A DNA stretch of 64,000 nucleotides from a virus (taxonomy: Duplodnaviria; Heunggongvirae; Uroviricota; Caudoviricetes; Demerecviridae), in the IMG/VR virus record IMGVR_UViG_2974579171_000001, positions 1 to 64,000 of that record. The stretch is one strand, 5' to 3'. Both the position numbers and the translations under genes were made by a program. Shown here in pieces: positions 6,953-64,000 of this stretch. How positions within the stretch are numbered: position 1 is the first letter of the stretch; the number at the start of each line of letters is the position of its first letter. A model generated the notes under the pieces. It saw only the letters and a program-made list of their open reading frames with translations, did not search any database and had not been told where the DNA came from.

Positions 6953-9713
6953 GTTCGGACATTACTTCTTCTGCCATGGCCCTCTCTTCCTCTGTCATGA
7001 ATTTTAGGGGGATTGGCATACACTCGATTTTACAATAGGTTCTGTACCAGTCTACAATATTTTCAGTGTTCATATCCTTACCAATACCCATCATACCAAG
7101 ATACATTCTGGCATATTTTGGGTTAGCACTCTGACCTGTTTTAAGGAAGAAGTCTTTCTTCTTACCTTTCAGAGCTTCTATGAATGGTTTGATAGTGATA
7201 TTTGAACACTTCTTAATATCTTCCCAGAACATCTCGTGCATTTTATGGAAGAATGCCGCTCGATCATTCGGTTTATCCTTGATATACTGTTCAACATGCT
7301 CAACTGTTACATCTTTAATAGACTCAAGATGATAATAGCGAACAAGAAGTAGTTTAGCTTCATACGCATCTGCATGGCGTGGAGCACAATAATCAGGAGT
7401 TGAATACAAAATGGCTTTGATTCGCTCTTCCGTATACTCTTTTCCTGCACCTTCGATAGTTCCCCAGCTTTCACTGAAAATATCAATAGTTGCACCCTGA
7501 TCAAGCAAGTAATAACGTAAAGTACTAGTATAGTTCCTAGACTCCAGCTCTCTACGACGTGCGTATAATTGCTGTGCTAACTCCAGCCAACCTTCATCAA
7601 TGTTGTATTGTTCAGAACCTGCGGAGAATCCACTCGTAGATTTATCAATAAAATAATAAATGTTCTGAGCGCCACGGTCGCGCCTGATTGCTTGGAAACG
7701 CATGTTTGGCGCTTGGTTGCTGGTTCTAGTAATAACGAATACGTTATCAAAGTAGTTGAAGTCAACGCCACTGGTTACGGATGGACTACATAATAAGCAA
7801 TCAATTTGTTGGTCAATTAGCTCATTAGTTGTGTAATCCAGAATACGTCGAATATCTACATCAGACGTAGAATTTGAGTGGATTTCCTTAACTAACGCAC
7901 CCGTATTACGACGCAACGCCATGCCCTTCTCATTCAGTTCATCCGGCCCACAGTCAGATACTAGGATAGATTTCTCACCCATCTCTAGAGAAGTCTGAAG
8001 TGCAACCCAAATACTGGATTCATCCGGGAACTCATAAGCATGAGCTTTTGACAGCATCTTACGGTGATGGTTGTAAAATGCAACCGGTTTATCAAAATCA
8101 ATTAGAGAACCGTAGGCTTCAATCGTCTCAGCACTAATATCACCATCAGATAAGATTACAGTTTTAGCTGTCATGAGGATGTCACGTAGAACTTGAATAC
8201 ATTCGCGACGTTGTTTAACAACGGGGGCGAATAATAGATCATTCATTACAGCGTCACATTCATCAATAAAAATGGTGTCTATTTGACCAATAAAACTCTT
8301 GAACTTATGCAAAGAGTGAATAGTTGTGGACATACGGTCAATAGCGCCACGCTTAAAATTAAGCATATCTACAGACTTATCATATTGTCCTGCACTAAAT
8401 TTCTTAGCATTTGAAGATACCAGCGCTCTAGTATTTGTAACTGCTAAAAAGTTGCCAGGAAGAACACCTGCGTCCAGCCATTTAGTTACTGCCGTAGTTT
8501 TACCAGTACCAAGACTTGCCTTAACAAATGTTATATGGCCTTTTGGGGGCACAATGTTAATCTTCAGGTATGGAACTTCTGGTGGAGAATCCACTTCTAA
8601 TTTCTTGAGTGGAACACCTTTCAGATTTAATGGAATCTCACGTTTAGAATTATTAACAAACGCTTTGAGAGCCTGCTTACGACCGTTATTAAAGTAATCT
8701 TGAATATTACGACTGTTATCTTTAGTTGCAATATATTCAGATAAAGCGGGTTTAATCTCACGTTCTAGCCATGCGAAATCAACACCATCCTCTAATGCTC
8801 TATGGTATAGTTTGGGGATAATACGCAAGTACACCCCATCCTCAGCTTCTTCCAATTCGCTGATGGTTTCTTCTACTTTATCAGAAGCAATCTTTTTGCC
8901 TTTAATTTGGTCAAGTAAAGAATAAAACTCCTCCTTAAACTCCCCTCTAGTTGTTTCATAGTCAACCAGATTATTAGGCAAATTTACCTTCGAACCTTTA
9001 ACATACACCAGACGTGGCTTACTCTCCGCTTTAAACGGATCAACAATACCATCGCTAAATAAAGGGTCGGCAAAATAGTGAAGCTGGACAGATGAATAAT
9101 AAGCTAAGTCGGCAATATCAAAACCGAATTTTTGCTTACTACTATCATTGATAGACGTAAATAAGAACTTTAACTGACCTTGAGTTACCTTGACGTTAGA
9201 TTCTAGCATTAAGTGCATTCGGATACCTGGTTTTAGGCCAGCCGAAGACGATGCATGAGCAATAAACCCTGCATCAAGAGGAAACATGTCCTCACTAATA
9301 CTATTCAACATCTTAATAATGTGGCGGGCCATACCTACAAGATTAAACTTGTCGTACCCACCGGTATCTAGGATACCATCCACGTCCATAGCAATAATAT
9401 TGCTAGGGTTGGATACATTAAAGTTACCTTTCTTACGTCGCACGTTATTTTTAGGTGCAAGACATCGACCTCGTACCGCAACGATATGAGGGTCAGACGT
9501 TAAACGTCTCATAAGTGGTAACATTTCGGCAAGGCTTTGCGGGTCATGCTCTTCTATTACATCAAATTTGAAGGGCATAGAAGCTGGTTTACCTTCTGGA
9601 TGCTCTTTAGAGAATCGCTTGGCAAAGGTATAATCTTCCGCTTTGATTTCTCGCCAAATACCTGTTGCTAAATCACGAGAAAATCCGGCGTGACCTTGAA
9701 GAATAGAAAACAC
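6927..9713 (-). CDS. putative replication origin-binding protein / SF2 helicase
   Basis: 928 aa. Walker A motif ASLGTGKTTAV in the central region. Large early replication protein preceded by a 600-bp noncoding region. Confidence 0.55.
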   Translation of the reverse strand: MFSILQGHAGFSRDLATGIWREIKAEDYTFAKRFSKEHPEGKPASMPFKFDVIEEHDPQSLAEMLPLMRRLTSDPHIVAVRGRCLAPKNNVRRKKGNFNVSNPSNIIAMDVDGILDTGGYDKFNLVGMARHIIKMLNSISEDMFPLDAGFIAHASSSAGLKPGIRMHLMLESNVKVTQGQLKFLFTSINDSSKQKFGFDIADLAYYSSVQLHYFADPLFSDGIVDPFKAESKPRLVYVKGSKVNLPNNLVDYETTRGEFKEEFYSLLDQIKGKKIASDKVEETISELEEAEDGVYLRIIPKLYHRALEDGVDFAWLEREIKPALSEYIATKDNSRNIQDYFNNGRKQALKAFVNNSKREIPLNLKGVPLKKLEVDSPPEVPYLKINIVPPKGHITFVKASLGTGKTTAVTKWLDAGVLPGNFLAVTNTRALVSSNAKKFSAGQYDKSVDMLNFKRGAIDRMSTTIHSLHKFKSFIGQIDTIFIDECDAVMNDLLFAPVVKQRRECIQVLRDILMTAKTVILSDGDISAETIEAYGSLIDFDKPVAFYNHHRKMLSKAHAYEFPDESSIWVALQTSLEMGEKSILVSDCGPDELNEKGMALRRNTGALVKEIHSNSTSDVDIRRILDYTTNELIDQQIDCLLCSPSVTSGVDFNYFDNVFVITRTSNQAPNMRFQAIRRDRGAQNIYYFIDKSTSGFSAGSEQYNIDEGWLELAQQLYARRRELESRNYTSTLRYYLLDQGATIDIFSESWGTIEGAGKEYTEERIKAILYSTPDYCAPRHADAYEAKLLLVRYYHLESIKDVTVEHVEQYIKDKPNDRAAFFHKMHEMFWEDIKKCSNITIKPFIEALKGKKKDFFLKTGQSANPKYARMYLGMMGIGKDMNTENIVDWYRTYCKIECMPIPLKFMTEEERAMAEEVMSELGATNEDT

Positions 9714-10331
9714 AACAATACTCCTGTGTTGGTTAATCGAAAATCTTTTCTTTAGGACTATTCAGAAAGAATAGAACAACTATTACTACTATTTACGTAA
9801 ACATCAATTATCATCAAACAATATGAATAAGTTATCATATCTCAGTGCTGTGCTCTCTTCGCTCATATACAGAATAGAACCTAGGTCATTGGCCGCTAAG
9901 CCGATTCTATTTGTCCTCACTATCCTATTGGTAGGTGACTACTGTACGTGCCGCCATTCGCTGCTCTTTTCGTTCGCACCCCCATATAAAGCTCTGCCTA
10001 TATAACGAGCTAAATATGCACGGTTTGGATTTACCTTTCCGAATTCAGGGTACACAGATCACTTAATTGAAGATTAACTAATGCAATATAAACACTAGTA
10101 ATAGTTAAAACAACCCTTAATGGGGCAGCCTAACTGTTCCGTATCGCGGATTGTAAACAAGAAAAATTAGCAAAATCAATTTTTACTAATGTCTCTCAAT
10201 TCAATATAAATATTATATCAAGATTTTGGGCATCCTGCAAGTAAAATTTTCCGGATGGTGCTATCATTGGTCTTGAGTACGTATAAAACCGAGCCAAAAT
10301 GACTCGGTAATCAGAGTTCAGCTAATAAAAA

Positions 10332-25923: not shown

Positions 25924-25976
25924 TAGACCAACTTTAAACAAATTCAAATCTCAAACTTCATATAAGGAAGCAAATA

Positions 25977-26615
25977 ATGACTACTCGTATTTCTAAAACT
26001 CGCGCTCTGGCAACTATCAAATCTCTGGAAGCTAAAATCCGTAAAGCTACTGAACAGCAGCTTCTGATCGCTGTTGGTGAAGGTAAGGATAAAAACCAGG
26101 TTGTAGTTGGCGCTGCAATCGAAGTAGATGACCTGTCTACTCGTATTAAGACTGATTTCCAATCTCTGCTGGATATGATGTCTCAGCGCGATCGTATCAA
26201 ATCTGCTCTAATTAAGAGCAATGCAGAAACAATCGTTGAGATCGGTTCTCGTAAAATGACTGTTGCGGAAGCAATTGAAGCTAAGCGTTCTATGGAGCTT
26301 AAAGCTCAACTGCTGGCTAACATGCGTAAGCAGTTCCATGCCGCTACGGTTAAGTTTAATACGCAGAAAGCACAGTTTGATGCTAAATATGAGCGTTTGC
26401 AGGATAGCATGGCTACCCGCGATAAGAAAACTTCCGAAGATGAAGTTAAAATGCAGCTCAACCTGCTGGAACTCAAGAATACTCCATTCTTGATTGATCC
26501 GCTGGAACTGGAGAAGCTGATTAAGCAGCATGACGAGGAATACCAGGACTTTGCAACAAATGTTGACTTTGTTCTGTCCGAGTCTAACGCTTCTACCTTC
26601 ATTGAAGTAGAGTAA
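25977..26615 (+). CDS. hypothetical coiled-coil protein
   Basis: 212-aa ORF. Confidence 0.5.
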   Translation: MTTRISKTRALATIKSLEAKIRKATEQQLLIAVGEGKDKNQVVVGAAIEVDDLSTRIKTDFQSLLDMMSQRDRIKSALIKSNAETIVEIGSRKMTVAEAIEAKRSMELKAQLLANMRKQFHAATVKFNTQKAQFDAKYERLQDSMATRDKKTSEDEVKMQLNLLELKNTPFLIDPLELEKLIKQHDEEYQDFATNVDFVLSESNASTFIEVE

Positions 26616-26998
26616 TAATTTAAAAGCTAGTAAATCGGTAGACGAAAGCCCAAGCATCTTACCTCGCAGCAGCGGTTGAAATACGAGGTTAAATAAGACC
26701 GCTGACCATACTATAAAGTATAATCTATTGGAGATTATGTTTATTACACCAGCCTTTTAAGCTGACATGTAAGAACAAAGCGTCGTTGATATTACCGACA
26801 CAACTTCAAAGATCAACATTTAAGTATGAAAGCTGAAAAGTTTAAAGAACTCAAACTTCTAAACTTCCAAAGCTAAAAGATGCAAAGTATTCGTTGATGA
26901 TTCAAACCCTAGATCAAAGGTACATGGCTCATAAGATATGGCCTGTGGCGCCTCTAGGCTGTTTATCGGTTTACTAGTTTCACAATTTAAAAATGTAT

Positions 26999-28763: not shown

Positions 28764-28835
28764 GCCGTCCTAGTATAATTGGTATTATCAAGCCGTAACT
28801 GGTGGAAGATGTAGGTTCGAATCCTACGGTCGGTA
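28764..28835 (+). tRNA. tRNA-like element (degenerate; no clear anticodon stem)
   Basis: T-arm GTAGG-TTCGAAT-CCTAC and a 6/7-bp acceptor pairing (gccgtcc / ggtcggt). D and anticodon arms are non-canonical. Confidence 0.3.
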
Positions 28836-30416: not shown

Positions 30417-30453
30417 CAAGCCCGCGTTTCCTCCGAGAGCGCGGGCTTTTCTG
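30417..30453 (+). terminator. rho-independent terminator
   Basis: AAGCCCGCG...CGCGGGCTT stem followed by TTCTG. Confidence 0.6.
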
Positions 30454-30471: not shown

Positions 30472-30506
30472 AGCCCCTAAGTCTTTCGACTAGGGGCTTT
30501 ATTGTT
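30472..30506. terminator. bidirectional terminator between convergent transcription units
   Basis: AGCCCCTA...TAGGGGCT stem flanked by A-run and T-run on both sides. Confidence 0.55.
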
Positions 30507-30513
30507 TGGTTCT

Positions 30514-30708
30514 TTAGAACCATATACTCTTGTTACAGCAACCACCCATACGGGAGACCAATCTTGACTGAAAATCTACTCTAGGGGGCAGGATAAGAGT
30601 AGGCTTAAAGGCAAACGGATTGAACGCCGGTATTTGCGTAAACATTGCTGGAGAGCAACAACGTGCTACAGGCATTGGGCAGCACGAAATAGATTTTCTG
30701 CAACACAT
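30514..30708 (-). CDS. Cys-rich small protein (64 aa)
   Basis: Perfect AAGGAGG Shine-Dalgarno 5 nt upstream of the ATG (minus strand). 10 Cys in 64 residues. Confidence 0.4.
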   Translation of the reverse strand: MCCRKSISCCPMPVARCCSPAMFTQIPAFNPFAFKPTLILPPRVDFQSRLVSRMGGCCNKSIWF

Positions 30709-30717
30709 AATTCCTCC

Positions 30718-31134
30718 TTAGGAGTTATTACCTCCATTTTGAGCTTTTGCAACCTGGCTTTGGCAGAAGCTATTAAACTTACCCATAAGTGATACAAGCT
30801 GCTTCCCATCCTCTGTCTTTGCGAAGTCTTCGAAAAGGGCTAGTACTGCCTGTCCTTCCGCAGAAACCTGCGGTTGTTGGGTTTGTTGCTGAACTTGCTG
30901 CTGCGGCATCTGTTGCTGCATTTGTTGAGACATTTGCGACTGCCCGCTCATTTGCTGCATCATTTGCATAGGACTTACACTTCCAGGGTTTTGCTGGAGT
31001 TGTTGCTGCATCTGTTGTGCTTCTGCTAAACGCTGTTGCAACTGTTGTAAGTAGGGGTTATCCAGACCCGGAACGGGCTGCTGGGAGCCCATACTTTGAT
31101 TAAGTCCGTTATTTACAAAACCATATTTACTCAT
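30718..31134 (-). CDS. Gln-rich low-complexity protein
   Basis: 138 aa, about 35 percent Q (MQQQLQQ..., QMQQQMPQQQVQQQTQQPQ). Confidence 0.55.
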   Translation of the reverse strand: MSKYGFVNNGLNQSMGSQQPVPGLDNPYLQQLQQRLAEAQQMQQQLQQNPGSVSPMQMMQQMSGQSQMSQQMQQQMPQQQVQQQTQQPQVSAEGQAVLALFEDFAKTEDGKQLVSLMGKFNSFCQSQVAKAQNGGNNS

Positions 31135-31155
31135 AATGGGCTCCTCCCCTTAATA

Positions 31156-32142
31156 TTAAGCCGGCAGTTTAGCCTGCAGACCAGCCAGAGTCTGAGTGAT
31201 AGCACCAAGACTTAAAGCGATTTGATTAATTACCTGACCGTTAGCACCGCTACCCGCAGCGATTGCTTCACGTAGACGACACGCGTCTAACTCATCCTGA
31301 ATACGCGCAGTAGTTACACCAGCGATCGCAGTCTGAAGTTCACAGCAACATTCAGCGATCTGACGTTCCAGAGAGTTCTGGTTAGCACACATCTGAGCCT
31401 GAACAGCGGCAAACTGGTTATTAGTTTGTAAAGTCTGCTGGAAAGCGATCTGTGCAGAATCAAACTTATCTTGTGCACGAGCTATCTGGTTAGCTGCGAA
31501 AGATTGATCAATCTGGCGAGAAAGATCGAACTGACCCTGAATAACGTTTCGAGTTTCCTGGCAGATCTGATTAGACAGATTAGCACCTGTACCATAGATC
31601 GTAGTTAGTACAGACTGAGTATCACGGCTCTGGTTTTGGGATGTCTGGCTAAAACCATTGTTAACTGCGCTTAAAACAGCTCCAGTACCCTGGTTAGCTT
31701 CTGTACGAGTAGTGTTAATAGCTGCTAGAATACTAGCGGTATCTTGGTTCTGAAGTACTGCATCAACTGCGGTACCTTCACCAACTACACCACGTCCACC
31801 GAATCAGCCGAAACCACCGAATCCGCCTGTTAGTAGAGCACCAATTAGGATAGCTCCAAATAGTCCCATACCTTCACCGCCGAAAGCACCTGCGTTTGCT
31901 GGGTAACCACCCATTAGGCCAGGGAAGCCATTAGTGAATACGTTTACTGGTTCTTGCATTTTATGTTTTCCATATTTATGACAATGTTCATCATCATCTT
32001 CTTCATCATCATCGTGTTCACGATGTTTTTCTTCGTAGGCTCTGACCTTCTCCCACTTTTTCTTATCTGATTCCTCGTGACGGTGCAGTTCTGCTGCAAC
32101 GCTAGCGACGGTCTCAGGACTCTTAGCTACTTCTTCTGTCAT
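31156..32142 (-). CDS. 329-codon reading frame interrupted by one in-frame TGA (codon 113; plus-strand 31804-31806)
   Basis: ATG 32142 lies 8 nt after AGGAGG. N-terminal acidic/His-rich region then Gly-rich hydrophobic segment ...GGFGGFG, then TGA, then FGGRGVVGEG... The frame is fully open through a long Q/N/T/S-rich region to the stop at 31156. The first downstream ATG is at 31392. Confidence 0.5.
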
Positions 32143-32348
32143 TTTTGACACCTCCTAGTATATAGAAAATGTGTGTCTCTTTGATCACTCATCCATAACA
32201 TATACTTTACACTACCCCAGCGAAAATGTCAAGGGGTCTTTAAAAATTGCCCCTGAATTTTTAGTGGGGTCACAAATTTTGGTCCTCACCACTTATCTGC
32301 TATCCTTAAGTGCCCTATGATTTTCCTCTAAAAAGTTAAAAAATTTGA

Positions 32349-33042: not shown

Positions 33043-33117
33043 GGTTCTCAAGCTCATATGGTATGAGCACCCAGCTCATAACTGGAAGGTACGTAGGTTC
33101 GAATCCTCGGGGAGCCA
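33043..33117 (+). tRNA. tRNA-Met or tRNA-Ile2 (anticodon CAT)
   Basis: Acceptor ggttctc/gggagcc (with G-U pairs), D-stem gctc/gagc, anticodon loop ctcataa, T-loop ttcgaat, encoded CCA. Confidence 0.6.
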
Positions 33118-34757: not shown

Positions 34758-34833
34758 GCATTCCTAGAGTGTTACTGGACAGCATGTCGGTCTCCAAAAC
34801 CGTACGGTCTAGGTTCGAGTCCTAGTAGGTTTG
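34758..34833 (+). tRNA. tRNA-like element with CCA anticodon-like loop (Trp?) and poorly paired acceptor stem
   Basis: Perfect T-arm ctagg-ttcgagt-cctag and loop ctccaaa. The acceptor stem pairs only about 4 of 7. Confidence 0.3.
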
Positions 34834-34842
34834 CCAAAATTT

Positions 34843-60712: not shown

Positions 60713-60976
60713 TTACATTAAAATAATTTTAGCGGCTTGCTTTTCGGTGCAATGTTCCGCTTTCAGGGTATCCAGCAAAAAGCCCGCGGTTTGCTGATCG
60801 ATTTGATCATTATCATAAAGCGCCTGTATGGTAGTGTAAGTTTTAGCAATGCCGTATTCTTGGACCATTTCCTGAATAATCCAGCGATTTGATACCCAGC
60901 CTTTTCCGGTGAAAAGAGCGTCAGAAGAAGAAAAAGCAACCATTTTAAGCCTCCAAAATTTTGGGAAAATTTTCAA
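60713..60976 (-). CDS. hypothetical protein
   Basis: 87-aa ORF (possibly starting at an internal Met). Confidence 0.4.
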   Translation of the reverse strand: MKIFPKFWRLKMVAFSSSDALFTGKGWVSNRWIIQEMVQEYGIAKTYTTIQALYDNDQIDQQTAGFLLDTLKAEHCTEKQAAKIILM

Positions 60977-61061
60977 CCGTCCTCGAACGGTGTAAAGGCA
61001 TTATAACAAAAAAGGCCACCATAAAAGGCGACCTTTACAAAACTTTACAATAGGCTAGTTA

Positions 61062-63916: not shown

Positions 63917-64000
63917 ATTAGTGTTAACTTTATATGCCCCAGTAGTTCGGGGCATATAACGATTAACATTAGTTAATCATTTAATCCCTTAAATTAAATT

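What the first reader, a model, noticed from the sequence alone, without database searches (positions are those of the whole stretch)
31156..32151. F1. 329-codon gene with a single in-frame TGA (candidate stop-codon readthrough or fresh pseudogene) on the opposite strand of the tRNA region
On the minus strand an ORF with an excellent RBS (AGGAGG, 8 nt, ATG at 32142) runs 112 codons and ends in ...GGFGGFG. A TGA follows at plus-strand 31804-31806. The same frame then stays open for 216 more codons (FGGRGVVGEG... through a Q/N/T/S-rich domain and a Cys-cluster CANQN...ECCCELQ) to the stop at 31156. I translated every codon between 31393 and 31803 and found no other stop. The first downstream in-frame ATG is 137 codons after the TGA, so an independent second gene is unlikely. 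The TGA sits inside a Gly-rich repeat (GGFGGFG-x-FGGRG), where Trp or Gly insertion would preserve the repeat. Possible explanations are programmed UGA readthrough, a regulatory truncation/extension pair, a very recent pseudogene, or a sequencing error. Nearby tRNA-like element 34758-34833 carries a CCA (Trp-type) anticodon loop with a non-canonical acceptor stem. Whether it decodes UGA is pure speculation.
Basis: seen in the sequence. Interest (0 to 1): 0.7.

Follow-up and report, generated by a model that had tools for sequence, protein, structure and literature searches.

The report
Strain-specific nonsense mutation in phage gene
The in-frame TGA is real in this record, but it is a one-off Gly-to-stop change found only in Salmonella phage SE11/SE8, in a dispensable T5-family early gene that is intact in about 220 relatives, so it is an ordinary fresh truncation (or a record error) and not programmed stop-codon readthrough.

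Summary
The window is Salmonella phage SE11 (MK972715). A 112-codon ORF (ATG 32142, AGGAGG 8 nt upstream) ends at TGA 31804-31806, and the same frame stays open for 215 more codons to TAA 31156-31158.

Both halves match one family colinearly: phrog_8119, T5 gene T5.077/T5p075, an uncharacterised early single-pass membrane protein. Every relative examined, from phage records, metagenomes and 24 protein clusters, has one 296-344 aa ORF. Close relatives read GGT GGA (Gly) where SE11 reads GGC TGA. Only SE11 and SE8 carry the TGA, and SE8 is identical to SE11 over all 64 kb.

There is no tRNA with a UCA anticodon. TGA ends at least 11 other long ORFs here. The phage tRNA-Trp is identical in phages whose gene is intact. 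The viable T5 st0 mutant has the whole gene deleted, and the gene is independently broken in three other lineages or records.

Verdict: a recent lineage-specific nonsense mutation, less likely a sequence error, in a non-essential gene. Programmed readthrough is not supported. At most there may be generic low-level UGA leakage. Interest is low.

The parts
32204..32232 (-). Sigma-70 type early promoter (TTGACA, 17 nt, TAAAGT), homolog of T5 promoter P12
   Evidence: Promoter scan. The alignment with the annotated T5 P12 region and with MM-1 is nearly invariant. P12 is annotated in AY734508 and NC_005859.
32151..32156 (-). Shine-Dalgarno AGGAGG, 8 nt before the ATG at 32142
   Evidence: Read directly from the sequence. 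Invariant in T5 and MM-1.
31807..32142 (-). Codons 1-112 of the T5.077/T5p075 homolog: charged, acidic/His-rich N-terminal region plus the single hydrophobic segment (aa 91-112). Annotated in GenBank as QEI25586.1.
   Evidence: phrog_8119 positions 1-115, E 6e-61. Kyte-Doolittle maximum 1.72 at aa 93-112.
31795..31821 (-). Three tandem 9-nt units (TTCGGTGGN) encoding (FGG)3. The middle unit carries the SE11-private TG-to-CT change.
   Evidence: Repeat spacing of 9 in the ancestral sequence. Alignments. One natural allele lacks a unit (P0002).
31804..31806 (-). In-frame TGA (codon 113), replacing GGA Gly. The adjacent codon 112 is GGC where relatives have GGT.
   Evidence: Only SE11 (two records) and SE8 hold this 39-mer among 50,697 phage records.
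31156..31803 (-). Codons 114-328 plus TAA: untranslated remnant of the Q/N-rich, Cys-containing, predicted helical C-terminal domain. Its last 78 codons (31156-31392) are annotated as QEI25585.1, a gene-calling by-product.
   Evidence: phrog_8119 positions 117-332, E 5e-130. No in-frame start before 31392. dN/dS of 0.13 for this part in the family. Low-confidence all-helical AlphaFold model.
30718..31134 (-). Next gene of the operon, homolog of T5.078/T5p076 (Q-rich, 138 aa, phrog_7894), with its own RBS
30514..30708 (-). Third gene of the operon, homolog of T5.079/T5p077 (64 aa, Cys-rich). Not annotated in SE11.
   Evidence: ORF list. Position matches T5.079 and MM-1 CDS0104.
30418..30448 (.). 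Bidirectional rho-independent terminator (12-bp stem) that closes the operon, homolog of T5 ter1
   Evidence: Terminator scan. T5 annotation.
34760..34836 (+). Phage tRNA-Trp (CCA) with two U-U mismatches in the acceptor stem. Not specific to SE11 and not a suppressor.
   Evidence: Identical sequence in fp01, SSP1, L6jm and metagenome contigs whose gene is intact.

Best explanation
The gene at 31156-32142 (minus strand) is the SE11 copy of T5 early gene T5.077 (T5p075, phrog_8119). The family encodes an uncharacterised protein of about 325 aa. It has a charged N-terminal region, one hydrophobic segment, a Gly-Phe repeat, and a Q/N-rich, Cys-containing helical C-terminal domain. It is transcribed from the P12-type promoter as the first gene of a three-gene operon that ends at a bidirectional terminator.

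In the SE11/SE8 lineage, two adjacent base changes (GGT GGA to GGC TGA) turned Gly-113 into an opal stop directly after the hydrophobic segment.

**Shown**
- The stop is private to this lineage.
- The codon is a sense codon everywhere else.
- Nothing in the genome is equipped to decode UGA.
- The gene is dispensable in T5.

**Inferred**
- Ribosomes terminate at the TGA and release a 112-aa N-terminal fragment with a C-terminal membrane anchor.
- The 215-codon C-terminal domain is lost, apart from the generic leakiness of UGA in enterobacteria (of the order of 0.1-1%, from established knowledge, not measured here).
- The 650 nt of untranslated mRNA may reduce expression of the two downstream genes through Rho-dependent polarity.
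- The mutation is recent. The remnant has no frameshift, no second stop and no private missense change.
For: - **Identity of the window.** Its 31100-32220 stretch matches MK972715.1 at 100% and at the same coordinates.
- **One family.** Both halves map colinearly on phrog_8119.
- **Relatives are intact.** About 219 Tequintavirus and related records carry the gene. Every record fetched or listed has a single ORF except those named below. All 24 protein clusters are 296-344 aa, with Gly at the aligned column wherever the column exists.
- **DNA census.** Every homologous locus retrieved from phage records, IMG/VR and metagenome contigs reads GGT GGA. HASG4 carries the identical local haplotype apart from the two bases.
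- **Privacy of the TGA.** The 39-mer with the TGA occurs only in SE11 (GenBank and RefSeq copies) and SE8. SE8 equals SE11 at 64,000 of 64,000 bases but is permuted differently.
- **Private changes.** Against 9 close relatives, SE11 has five synonymous changes plus the nonsense change, and no missense or indel.
- **Selection on the C-terminal part.** dN/dS is 0.13 between the T5 and fp01 groups. SE11 versus fp01 shows 7 synonymous and 0 nonsynonymous differences.
- **No decoding machinery.** There are 22 ARAGORN tRNAs plus 2 Rfam-only tRNA-like elements, none with UCA. TGA ends at least 11 long ORFs, 7 of them as TGA-T. The tRNA-Trp is identical in phages with an intact gene.
- **No restart.** There is no start codon before 31392.
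- **Dispensability.** The viable T5 st0 deletion mutant record AY692264 joins T5p066 to T5p079, removing T5p067-T5p078, which includes this gene.
- **The gene breaks elsewhere too.** T5 ATCC 11303-B5 (AY587007) has a 1-nt deletion two codons after this position. A metagenome lineage has an 18-to-17-nt repeat homogenisation at codons 119-124. INF11 has a frameshift near codon 38.
- **Assembly quality.** Of 85 long MM-1 ORFs compared with the window, only this gene and two doubtful cases show in-frame stops.
Against: - No reads are available, so the two-base change could be an error in the deposited sequence.
- SE8 is not an independent lineage, because it is identical to SE11. Its contig end lies only 70 nt from the TGA. 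That could point to read heterogeneity or an assembly problem at this spot.
- The three private changes downstream of the TGA are all synonymous. Under neutrality that has a probability of roughly 0.24^3, about 0.014. This would also fit continued translation of the C-terminal part. The changes may simply predate the stop, and at least one is shared with another phage.
- Expression and termination were not measured.
Confidence: 0.67

Rival explanations
1. Sequencing or assembly error. The phage really has GGT GGA and an intact 328-aa gene, and the GGC TGA dinucleotide is an artefact carried into both deposited records.
For:
- It consists of two adjacent bases inside a 3 x 9-nt tandem repeat.
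- The SE8 contig is broken 70 nt from the site. That is about a 0.2% coincidence for a 107.8-kb genome and suggests something unusual in the reads here.
- The downstream frame is pristine.
- Another record of the same gene (T5 AY587007) differs from two other T5 records by a 1-nt indel 6 nt away, which may itself be an error.
Against: - The two records start at different points, so they look like separate de novo assemblies that gave the same bases.
- In SE11 the site is 31.8 kb from a contig end.
- A double substitution is not a typical consensus error at phage-level coverage.
- The rest of the window shows no excess of broken genes.
Confidence: 0.22
2. Functional recoding. The UGA is decoded often enough to give a short and a long isoform from one gene. 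Routes considered are near-cognate tRNA-Trp readthrough (possibly boosted by the phage tRNA-Trp), selenocysteine insertion, or a +9 hop of peptidyl-tRNA-Gly from GGC over TGA-TTC to the matching GGT of the next repeat unit.
For: - The remnant is intact and its private changes are all synonymous.
- UGA is the leakiest stop in enterobacteria (established knowledge).
- The repeat offers a synonymous landing codon 9 nt downstream. A natural allele lacking one repeat unit exists (P0002), so a hop product would resemble a tolerated protein.
- The phage encodes its own tRNA-Trp.
Against: - The stop is not conserved in any relative.
- There is no UCA tRNA and no tRNA-Sec at the gathering score. The only weak tRNA-Sec match is the tRNA-Tyr, at 34.9 bits against 47.
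- No Rfam element lies in or after the site.
- The base after the stop is U, which to my knowledge is a poor context for UGA readthrough in E. coli.
- TGA-T terminates 7 other long ORFs here.
- The tRNA-Trp is unchanged relative to phages without the stop.
- Downstream RNA was not folded or compared. It differs from close relatives only by synonymous changes, so an SE11-specific stimulator is unlikely, but this is inference, not a test.
Confidence: 0.04
3. Selected truncation. Loss of the C-terminal domain while keeping the N-terminal region and membrane anchor is advantageous on some hosts, so breaks accumulate just after the hydrophobic segment.
For: - Three independent ORF-breaking changes fall within codons 113-124: SE11/SE8 (nonsense), T5 AY587007 (-1), and the ERZ27291934/ERR2868471 lineage (-1).
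- A rough scan statistic for three events within about 45 nt of 750 nt gives about 0.01.
- The promoter, RBS and N-terminal part are fully conserved in SE11.
Against: - A fourth break (INF11) lies near codon 38 and destroys the N-terminal part as well.
- The whole gene is deleted in viable T5 st0.
- The zone is full of short tandem repeats that favour mutation or sequencing error.
- There are only 3-4 events among more than 220 genomes, and some may be errors.
- The C-terminal domain is under strong purifying selection in the family.
Confidence: 0.06
4. Two separate genes. The downstream frame is an independently initiated second gene, as the GenBank annotation implies (QEI25586.1 and QEI25585.1).
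For: SE11 and SE8 are annotated with a 112-aa and a 78-aa CDS.
Against: - No ATG, GTG or TTG lies in frame between 31803 and 31392.
- The 78-aa ORF is merely the tail of the family profile.
- Relatives encode one continuous protein.
- The same 78-aa ORF is called elsewhere only where the gene is broken or interrupted by scaffold Ns.
Confidence: 0.01

Closest known systems
T5 gene T5.077 (YP_006905.1; T5p075/AAU09416.1 in AY734508), PHROG 8119, with its P12-to-ter1 operon
   Same: - Same position between the Toprim/primase-like gene and the Band-7 lipoprotein gene.
- Same promoter, RBS, downstream genes and terminator.
- tblastn identity to T5's own copy is 80.8% for the intact fp01 ortholog used as query; SE11 is 97.0% identical to fp01.
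- Both halves align end to end with the family profile.
   Different: SE11 has TGA at codon 113, where T5 has AGT (Ser) and all close relatives have GGA (Gly). The family has no known function, no Pfam, NCBIfam or PDB relative, and only a poor AlphaFold model.
T5 ATCC 11303-B5 record AY587007, ORF072/ORF073
   Same: The same gene is split in a deposited genome by a change two codons from the SE11 stop, inside the same Gly-Phe repeat. The remnant is otherwise intact.
   Different: The cause is a 1-nt deletion (frameshift), not a nonsense codon. Two other T5 records (AY543070/NC_005859 and AY734508) are intact, so this split may be a strain difference or a Sanger-era error.
Programmed UGA readthrough in phages (Q-beta coat to A1 extension)
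   Same: A UGA followed by a long open in-frame extension, in a phage of enterobacteria, with near-cognate tRNA-Trp as the natural decoder (knowledge, not tested here).
   Different: In Q-beta the stop and its extension are conserved and the extended product is essential. Here the stop is private to one lineage, interrupts an ancestral single ORF, and sits in a gene that T5 can lose entirely.
T5 st0 deletion (AY692264), the deletable tRNA region of T5
   Same: Loss of function of the same gene in a viable phage. The gene lies in the tRNA-rich early region known to tolerate deletions.
   Different: st0 removes about 8.5 kb including the whole operon. SE11 has a point truncation that leaves the promoter, the N-terminal part and the neighbouring genes in place.

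Membership tests
T5.077/T5p075 family (phrog_8119) | Full-length colinear similarity to the family profile | tested here: met
   N-part matches profile positions 1-115 (E 6e-61). C-part matches positions 117-332 (E 5e-130). The intact fp01 ortholog matches 1-332 (E 3e-203).
T5.077/T5p075 family (phrog_8119) | Conserved synteny: P12 promoter, this gene, T5.078 and T5.079 homologs, bidirectional terminator, Band-7 gene on the opposite strand | tested here: met
T5.077/T5p075 family (phrog_8119) | Single uninterrupted ORF of about 300-345 codons | tested here: not met
   SE11 has TGA at codon 113. All 24 protein clusters are 296-344 aa.
Programmed stop-codon readthrough | The stop codon is conserved at the same position in related genomes | tested here: not met
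   GGA (AGT in T5) in every relative examined. The TGA-containing 39-mer occurs only in SE11/SE8.
Programmed stop-codon readthrough | Stimulatory context or downstream RNA element | tested here: inconclusive
   The 3' neighbour is U. No Rfam match lies in 30500-32300 apart from noise. TGA-T ends 7 other long ORFs. No dedicated fold comparison was made. The downstream sequence differs from relatives without the stop only by synonymous changes.
Programmed stop-codon readthrough | Both the short and the extended protein are made | not testable with these tools
   Needs proteomics, a reporter assay or ribosome profiling.
Suppressor tRNA or reassigned UGA (genetic codes 4 and 25) | A tRNA with anticodon UCA, and UGA absent from gene ends | tested here: not met
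   Of 24 tRNA-like elements, none has UCA. At least 11 long ORFs end in TGA.
Selenocysteine insertion | tRNA-Sec and a SECIS hairpin just after the UGA | tested here: not met
   No tRNA-Sec reaches the gathering score; the tRNA-Tyr scores 34.9 against 47. No RNA family match follows the TGA. Relatives have Gly here.
Translational bypassing (T4 gene 60 type) | Matched take-off and landing codons flanking a stop, plus a take-off hairpin and nascent-peptide signal, conserved among relatives | tested here: inconclusive
   A synonymous Gly pair (GGC ... GGT, 9 nt apart) exists because of the tandem repeat. The arrangement is not conserved, and no hairpin or peptide signal was tested.
Recent pseudogene or nonsense allele of a non-essential gene | Intact orthologs with a sense codon, no downstream restart, and a gene dispensable in a relative | tested here: met
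   The T5 st0 deletion removes the gene.
Recent pseudogene or nonsense allele of a non-essential gene | The mutation is present in the phage DNA and not only in the record | not testable with these tools
   No reads are accessible. No Logan or other contig carries the 112- or 115-aa product. SE8 is identical to SE11.

The most novel reading that the evidence does not exclude
The stretch just after the membrane segment of T5.077-family genes (codons 113-124, full of short tandem repeats) may be a recurrent break point. Different tequintavirus lineages would shed the C-terminal domain there while keeping a tail-anchored N-terminal fragment. In SE11 the break could be partly reversible at the translational level: UGA leakage through the abundant phage tRNA-Trp, or a +9 hop between the repeat's Gly codons. 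Either would give a minor full-length isoform.
Probability: 0.07. Interest if true: 0.4.

Novelty: already known. Interest (0 to 1): 0.12.

Why it matters
This matters mainly as a negative result. A tempting recoding candidate in a T5-like phage turns out to be a private nonsense (or erroneous) codon in a gene that T5 can live without.

It has three practical uses.
- The two SE11/SE8 CDS entries QEI25586.1 and QEI25585.1 (with QEI25826.1 in SE8) should be read as fragments of one T5.077-type gene.
- The T5 ATCC record's ORF072/ORF073 are the same gene, split.
- T5.077 is a conserved, selected but dispensable early membrane protein of unknown function. Natural truncation alleles (SE11, the ERZ27291934 lineage) could serve as ready-made mutants if anyone studies it.

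Tried and rejected
- **Programmed readthrough, suppressor tRNA, Sec.** Rejected on lack of conservation of the stop, absence of a UCA tRNA, and normal use of TGA as a stop.
- **The MM-1 'tRNA-OTHER' homolog at 28764-28835.** Checked as a possible opal suppressor. Its anticodon arm is degenerate and contains no UCA.
- **Templated origin of the TG-to-CT change.** No direct or inverted copy longer than 7 nt contains the new bases within 1.4 kb, and the 14-mer occurs nowhere else in the window. Not supported.
- **Function of the protein.** Pfam, NCBIfam, PHROG annotation and a PDB profile search gave nothing. The AlphaFold2 model from a 24-sequence alignment had mean pLDDT 45.7, so no fold search was run. 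A profile search of 1.84 billion representatives gave only 5 strong clusters, plus weak hits to other proteins with a membrane segment and a Q/N-rich helical region, without Pfam domains.
- **Literature.** Nothing on SE11/SE8 sequencing or on T5.077/T5p075.
- **Independent read evidence.** No contig in the large assembly collection encodes the truncated 112- or 115-aa product.
- **Two apparent extra split alleles (L036, L037).** These are scaffold gaps of Ns, not mutations.
- **IMG/VR pattern scan.** It returned only copies of GenBank genomes. Three genome-contig hits and two metagenome hits were unrelated Gly-rich sequences.
Full report
**Identity of the window and check of the observation**

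The stretch 31100-32220 is 100% identical, at the same coordinates, to Salmonella phage SE11 (MK972715.1 / NC_048786.1). SE11 is a Tequintavirus (T5-like) isolated from Canadian sewage.

On the minus strand the sequence reads AGGAGG (32156-32151), an 8-nt spacer, then ATG (32142). After 112 sense codons ending ...LLTGGFGGFG comes TGA (31806-31804). A further 215 sense codons run to TAA (31158-31156). The first in-frame ATG/GTG/TTG after the TGA is the ATG at 31392.

GenBank annotates the locus as two CDS, QEI25586.1 (112 aa) and QEI25585.1 (the last 78 codons).

**What the gene is**

Both halves match one family colinearly. Residues 1-112 match phrog_8119 positions 1-115 (E 6e-61), and residues 114-328 match positions 117-332 (E 5e-130). 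The stop falls on profile position 116.

The ortholog in the T5 reference genome is T5.077 (YP_006905.1, 321 aa), called T5p075 in AY734508. It is an unnamed early gene behind promoter P12. It is followed by T5.078 and T5.079 and an 'efficient bidirectional rho-independent terminator'.

SE11 has all of these elements:
- the TTGACA-17-TAAAGT promoter at 32232-32204, almost invariant against T5 and MM-1;
- the downstream genes at 30718-31134 and 30514-30708;
- a 12-bp-stem terminator at 30418-30448.

The protein has a charged, acidic/His-rich N-terminal region. It has one hydrophobic segment at aa 91-112 (Kyte-Doolittle 1.72), then a (FGG)n repeat. The C-terminal domain is 215 aa, with 46 Q+N and 6 Cys. 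AlphaFold models that domain as long helices, but with poor confidence (mean pLDDT 45.7).

Pfam, NCBIfam and a PDB profile search find nothing. A profile search of 1.84 billion representatives finds only five strong clusters. It also gives weak hits to other proteins built as a membrane segment plus a Q/N-rich helical region. The function is unknown.

**Comparison with relatives**

About 220 phage records carry the gene. In every one fetched (fp01, MM-1, HASG4, S124, Kenya-K41, BUCT632, slur09, T5_ev212, 8sent1748, T5) it is a single ORF of 321-330 codons. In the roughly 95 distinct records listed with their annotation, only SE11 had two CDS under the match. AY587007 and INF11, found later, are discussed below. 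All 24 protein clusters in the 5.8-billion-protein collection are 296-344 aa.

At the aligned column the residue is Gly wherever the column exists. At DNA level every homologous locus reads GGT GGA where SE11 reads GGC TGA. This holds for phage records, IMG/VR contigs and six metagenome contigs. HASG4 carries exactly the SE11 local haplotype apart from those two bases.

The 39-mer around the TGA occurs in only three of 50,697 phage records: SE11 twice and SE8. SE8 (MK972716.1) comes from the same submission and has the same length. It is identical to the window at 64,000 of 64,000 positions but starts at window position 31877. It is the same genome, apparently assembled separately.

**Age of the change and selection**

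Against nine close relatives the SE11 gene has six private codon changes. Five are synonymous (codons 88, 112, 198, 281, 289). The sixth is GGA to TGA at codon 113. Two of the synonymous changes are probably shared with unsampled phages.

The C-terminal part is under strong purifying selection in the family. dN/dS is 0.13 between T5 and the fp01 group. SE11 differs from fp01 there by 7 synonymous and 0 nonsynonymous changes. The remnant shows no decay. Either the stop is very recent or it is not real. The data cannot exclude continued translation, but nothing else supports it.

**Can UGA be decoded here?**

ARAGORN finds 22 tRNAs, all with ordinary anticodons. Rfam adds two tRNA-like elements:
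- a CAU tRNA at 33043-33117;
- a degenerate element at 28764-28835, whose anticodon arm does not fold and contains no UCA.

No tRNA-Sec reaches threshold, and no RNA family matches in or after the gene. TGA terminates at least 11 other ORFs of 100 codons or more in the window, 7 of them as TGA-T, the same tetranucleotide as here.

The tRNA-Trp(CCA) at 34760-34836 does have two U-U mismatches in its acceptor stem. However, it is base-for-base identical in fp01, SSP1, L6jm and metagenome contigs whose gene is intact. It has not co-evolved with the stop.

From established knowledge, UGA is somewhat leaky in enterobacteria through tRNA-Trp, and a 3' U is not a favourable context. I did not measure this.

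The tandem repeat does create a synonymous Gly codon 9 nt downstream (GGC TGA TTC GGT). A rare peptidyl-tRNA hop is therefore conceivable, and a natural allele lacking one repeat unit exists (P0002). This is a by-product of the repeat and not a conserved device.

**Dispensability and other broken alleles**

The record of the viable T5 st0 deletion mutant (AY692264) marks the recombination site that joins T5p066 to T5p079. T5p067-T5p078, including this gene and its operon, are therefore absent.

Three other lineages or records carry breaks in the same gene:
- **T5 ATCC 11303-B5 (AY587007).** It differs from AY543070 and AY734508 by a single-G deletion two codons after the SE11 position. This splits the gene into ORF072 and ORF073.
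- **A metagenome contig (ERZ27291934 k119_33284) and an identical Logan contig (ERR2868471).** An 18-nt segment has been overwritten by a copy of the following 17 nt at codons 119-124, giving a -1 frameshift.
- **Salmonella phage INF11.** It has a frameshift near codon 38.

Two further 'split' contigs are only scaffold gaps.

Three of the four breaks lie within 36 nt just after the hydrophobic segment. A rough scan statistic gives about 0.01. That zone consists of short tandem repeats (3 x TTCGGTGGN and an imperfect 17/18-nt repeat). A mutational or sequencing hot spot is therefore at least as likely as selection. The SE11 change itself is not explained by any local template.

**Real mutation or record error?**

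Points in favour of a real mutation:
- Two differently permuted assemblies agree.
- In SE11 the site is far from a contig end.
- The window is not error-ridden. Of 85 long MM-1 ORFs compared, only this gene, a divergent 102-aa ORF and one ambiguous-strand locus show in-frame stops.

Points in favour of an artefact or heterogeneity:
- The SE8 contig ends 70 nt from the TGA (about 0.2% by chance).
- The change is a dinucleotide inside a repeat.
- The remnant is pristine.

No reads, and no independent contig encoding the truncated product, could be found. No paper describes how the phages were sequenced. I put the odds at roughly 2:1 to 3:1 for a real mutation.

**Mechanism proposed**

Host RNA polymerase transcribes the operon from the intact P12-type promoter (shown by homology). 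Ribosomes start at the strong RBS and terminate at UGA-113. They release a 112-aa protein consisting of the charged N-terminal region and a C-terminal hydrophobic anchor (inferred). The C-terminal domain is not made, apart from background leakage. The 650 nt of ribosome-free RNA may lower expression of the two downstream genes through Rho (inferred). Because T5 tolerates deletion of the whole operon, the phage remains viable.

**Verdict**

Its most interesting interpretation, programmed readthrough or a regulatory pair, is not supported. What is there is an ordinary, lineage-private nonsense codon, or a sequence error, in a conserved but dispensable T5.077-type early gene. Interest is low.

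The only reading with some novelty is a recurrent break point after the membrane segment, possibly with a minor readthrough or hop isoform. It rests on three or four events and is confounded by repeat-driven mutation and by sequencing quality.

Noticed in passing
window 31876/31877 (= ends of record MK972716.1): Salmonella phage SE8 is identical to SE11 over all 64,000 bases and has the same length (107,763). Its record is permuted so that the contig ends fall inside this very gene, 70 nt upstream of the TGA. By chance that is about 0.2%. It may hint at read heterogeneity or an assembly-graph bubble at the TGA site.
   Followed up: partly
L039/L041 (AY587007.1 37986-38950) versus L013/L040 (AY734508, NC_005859): The T5 ATCC 11303-B5 genome record splits T5.077 into ORF072 (77 aa) and ORF073 (162 aa). 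The cause is a single-G deletion in the Gly-Phe repeat, 6 nt from the position of the SE11 stop, plus one Gly-to-Asp substitution. Two other T5 records are intact.
   Followed up: yes
L034 1313-2301 (ENA ERZ27291934 k119_33284) and L038 (Logan ERR2868471), 100% identical over 2310 bp: A natural lineage in which the 18 nt GTTGGTGAAGGTACCGCA (codons 119-124) are replaced by a second copy of the following 17 nt GTTGATGCAGTACTTCA. This gives a -1 frameshift and a 139-aa product.
   Followed up: yes
L042 (PV692321.1, Salmonella phage INF11) 301-1286: The same gene is annotated as two overlapping CDS (67 and 265 aa) because of a frameshift near codon 38, at the start of the acidic/His-rich region.
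   Followed up: partly
L043 (AY692264.1, T5 st0) 9668-9847: The st0 deletion joins T5p066 to T5p079 at a 10-bp recombination site. It removes T5p067-T5p078, including the whole P12 operon and several tRNA genes.
   Followed up: partly
window 28764-28835 (+): A tRNA-like element (Rfam tRNA 35.5 bits, gathering score 29) that ARAGORN does not call. Its acceptor, D and T arms are good, but the anticodon arm does not pair. The homolog is annotated 'tRNA-OTHER' in phage MM-1. It has no UCA anticodon.
   Followed up: partly
window 33043-33117 (+): A tRNA with anticodon CAU (Rfam 38.2 bits) that ARAGORN missed. Its counterpart is annotated tRNA-Ile2 in T5 and tRNA-Met in MM-1. It overlaps the end of an annotated hypothetical CDS in MM-1.
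   Followed up: no
window 34760-34836 (+): The phage tRNA-Trp has U2-U71 and U3-U70 mismatches in the acceptor stem. It is nevertheless 100% conserved in several relatives, with one substitution in MM-1.
   Followed up: partly
window 25961-26657: Strand ambiguity. SE11/SE8 annotate a plus-strand 'tail fibers protein' at 25977-26615. MM-1 annotates the opposite strand (CDS0113, 174 aa). In SE11 both minus-strand frames carry in-frame stops.
   Followed up: no
window 60716-61015 (-): The homolog (72% identity) of MM-1 CDS0018 (102 aa, in the terminal-repeat pre-early region) contains one in-frame stop in SE11.
   Followed up: no
window 30718-31134 (-): The Q-rich 138-aa downstream gene (T5.078 homolog, phrog_7894) is annotated 'cAMP-dependent protein kinase catalytic subunit (kapc)' in AY587007 and in some newer phage records. 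Pfam gives no kinase or any other significant hit, so the name looks like a propagated mis-annotation.
   Followed up: partly
hit H163 (AB910392.1, Pseudomonas phage KPP23, 44594-45052): The C-terminal half of the protein (aa 173-325) has a 60% identical tblastn match in an unrelated Pseudomonas phage. The Cys-containing helical domain therefore circulates as a module outside the T5 group.
   Followed up: no
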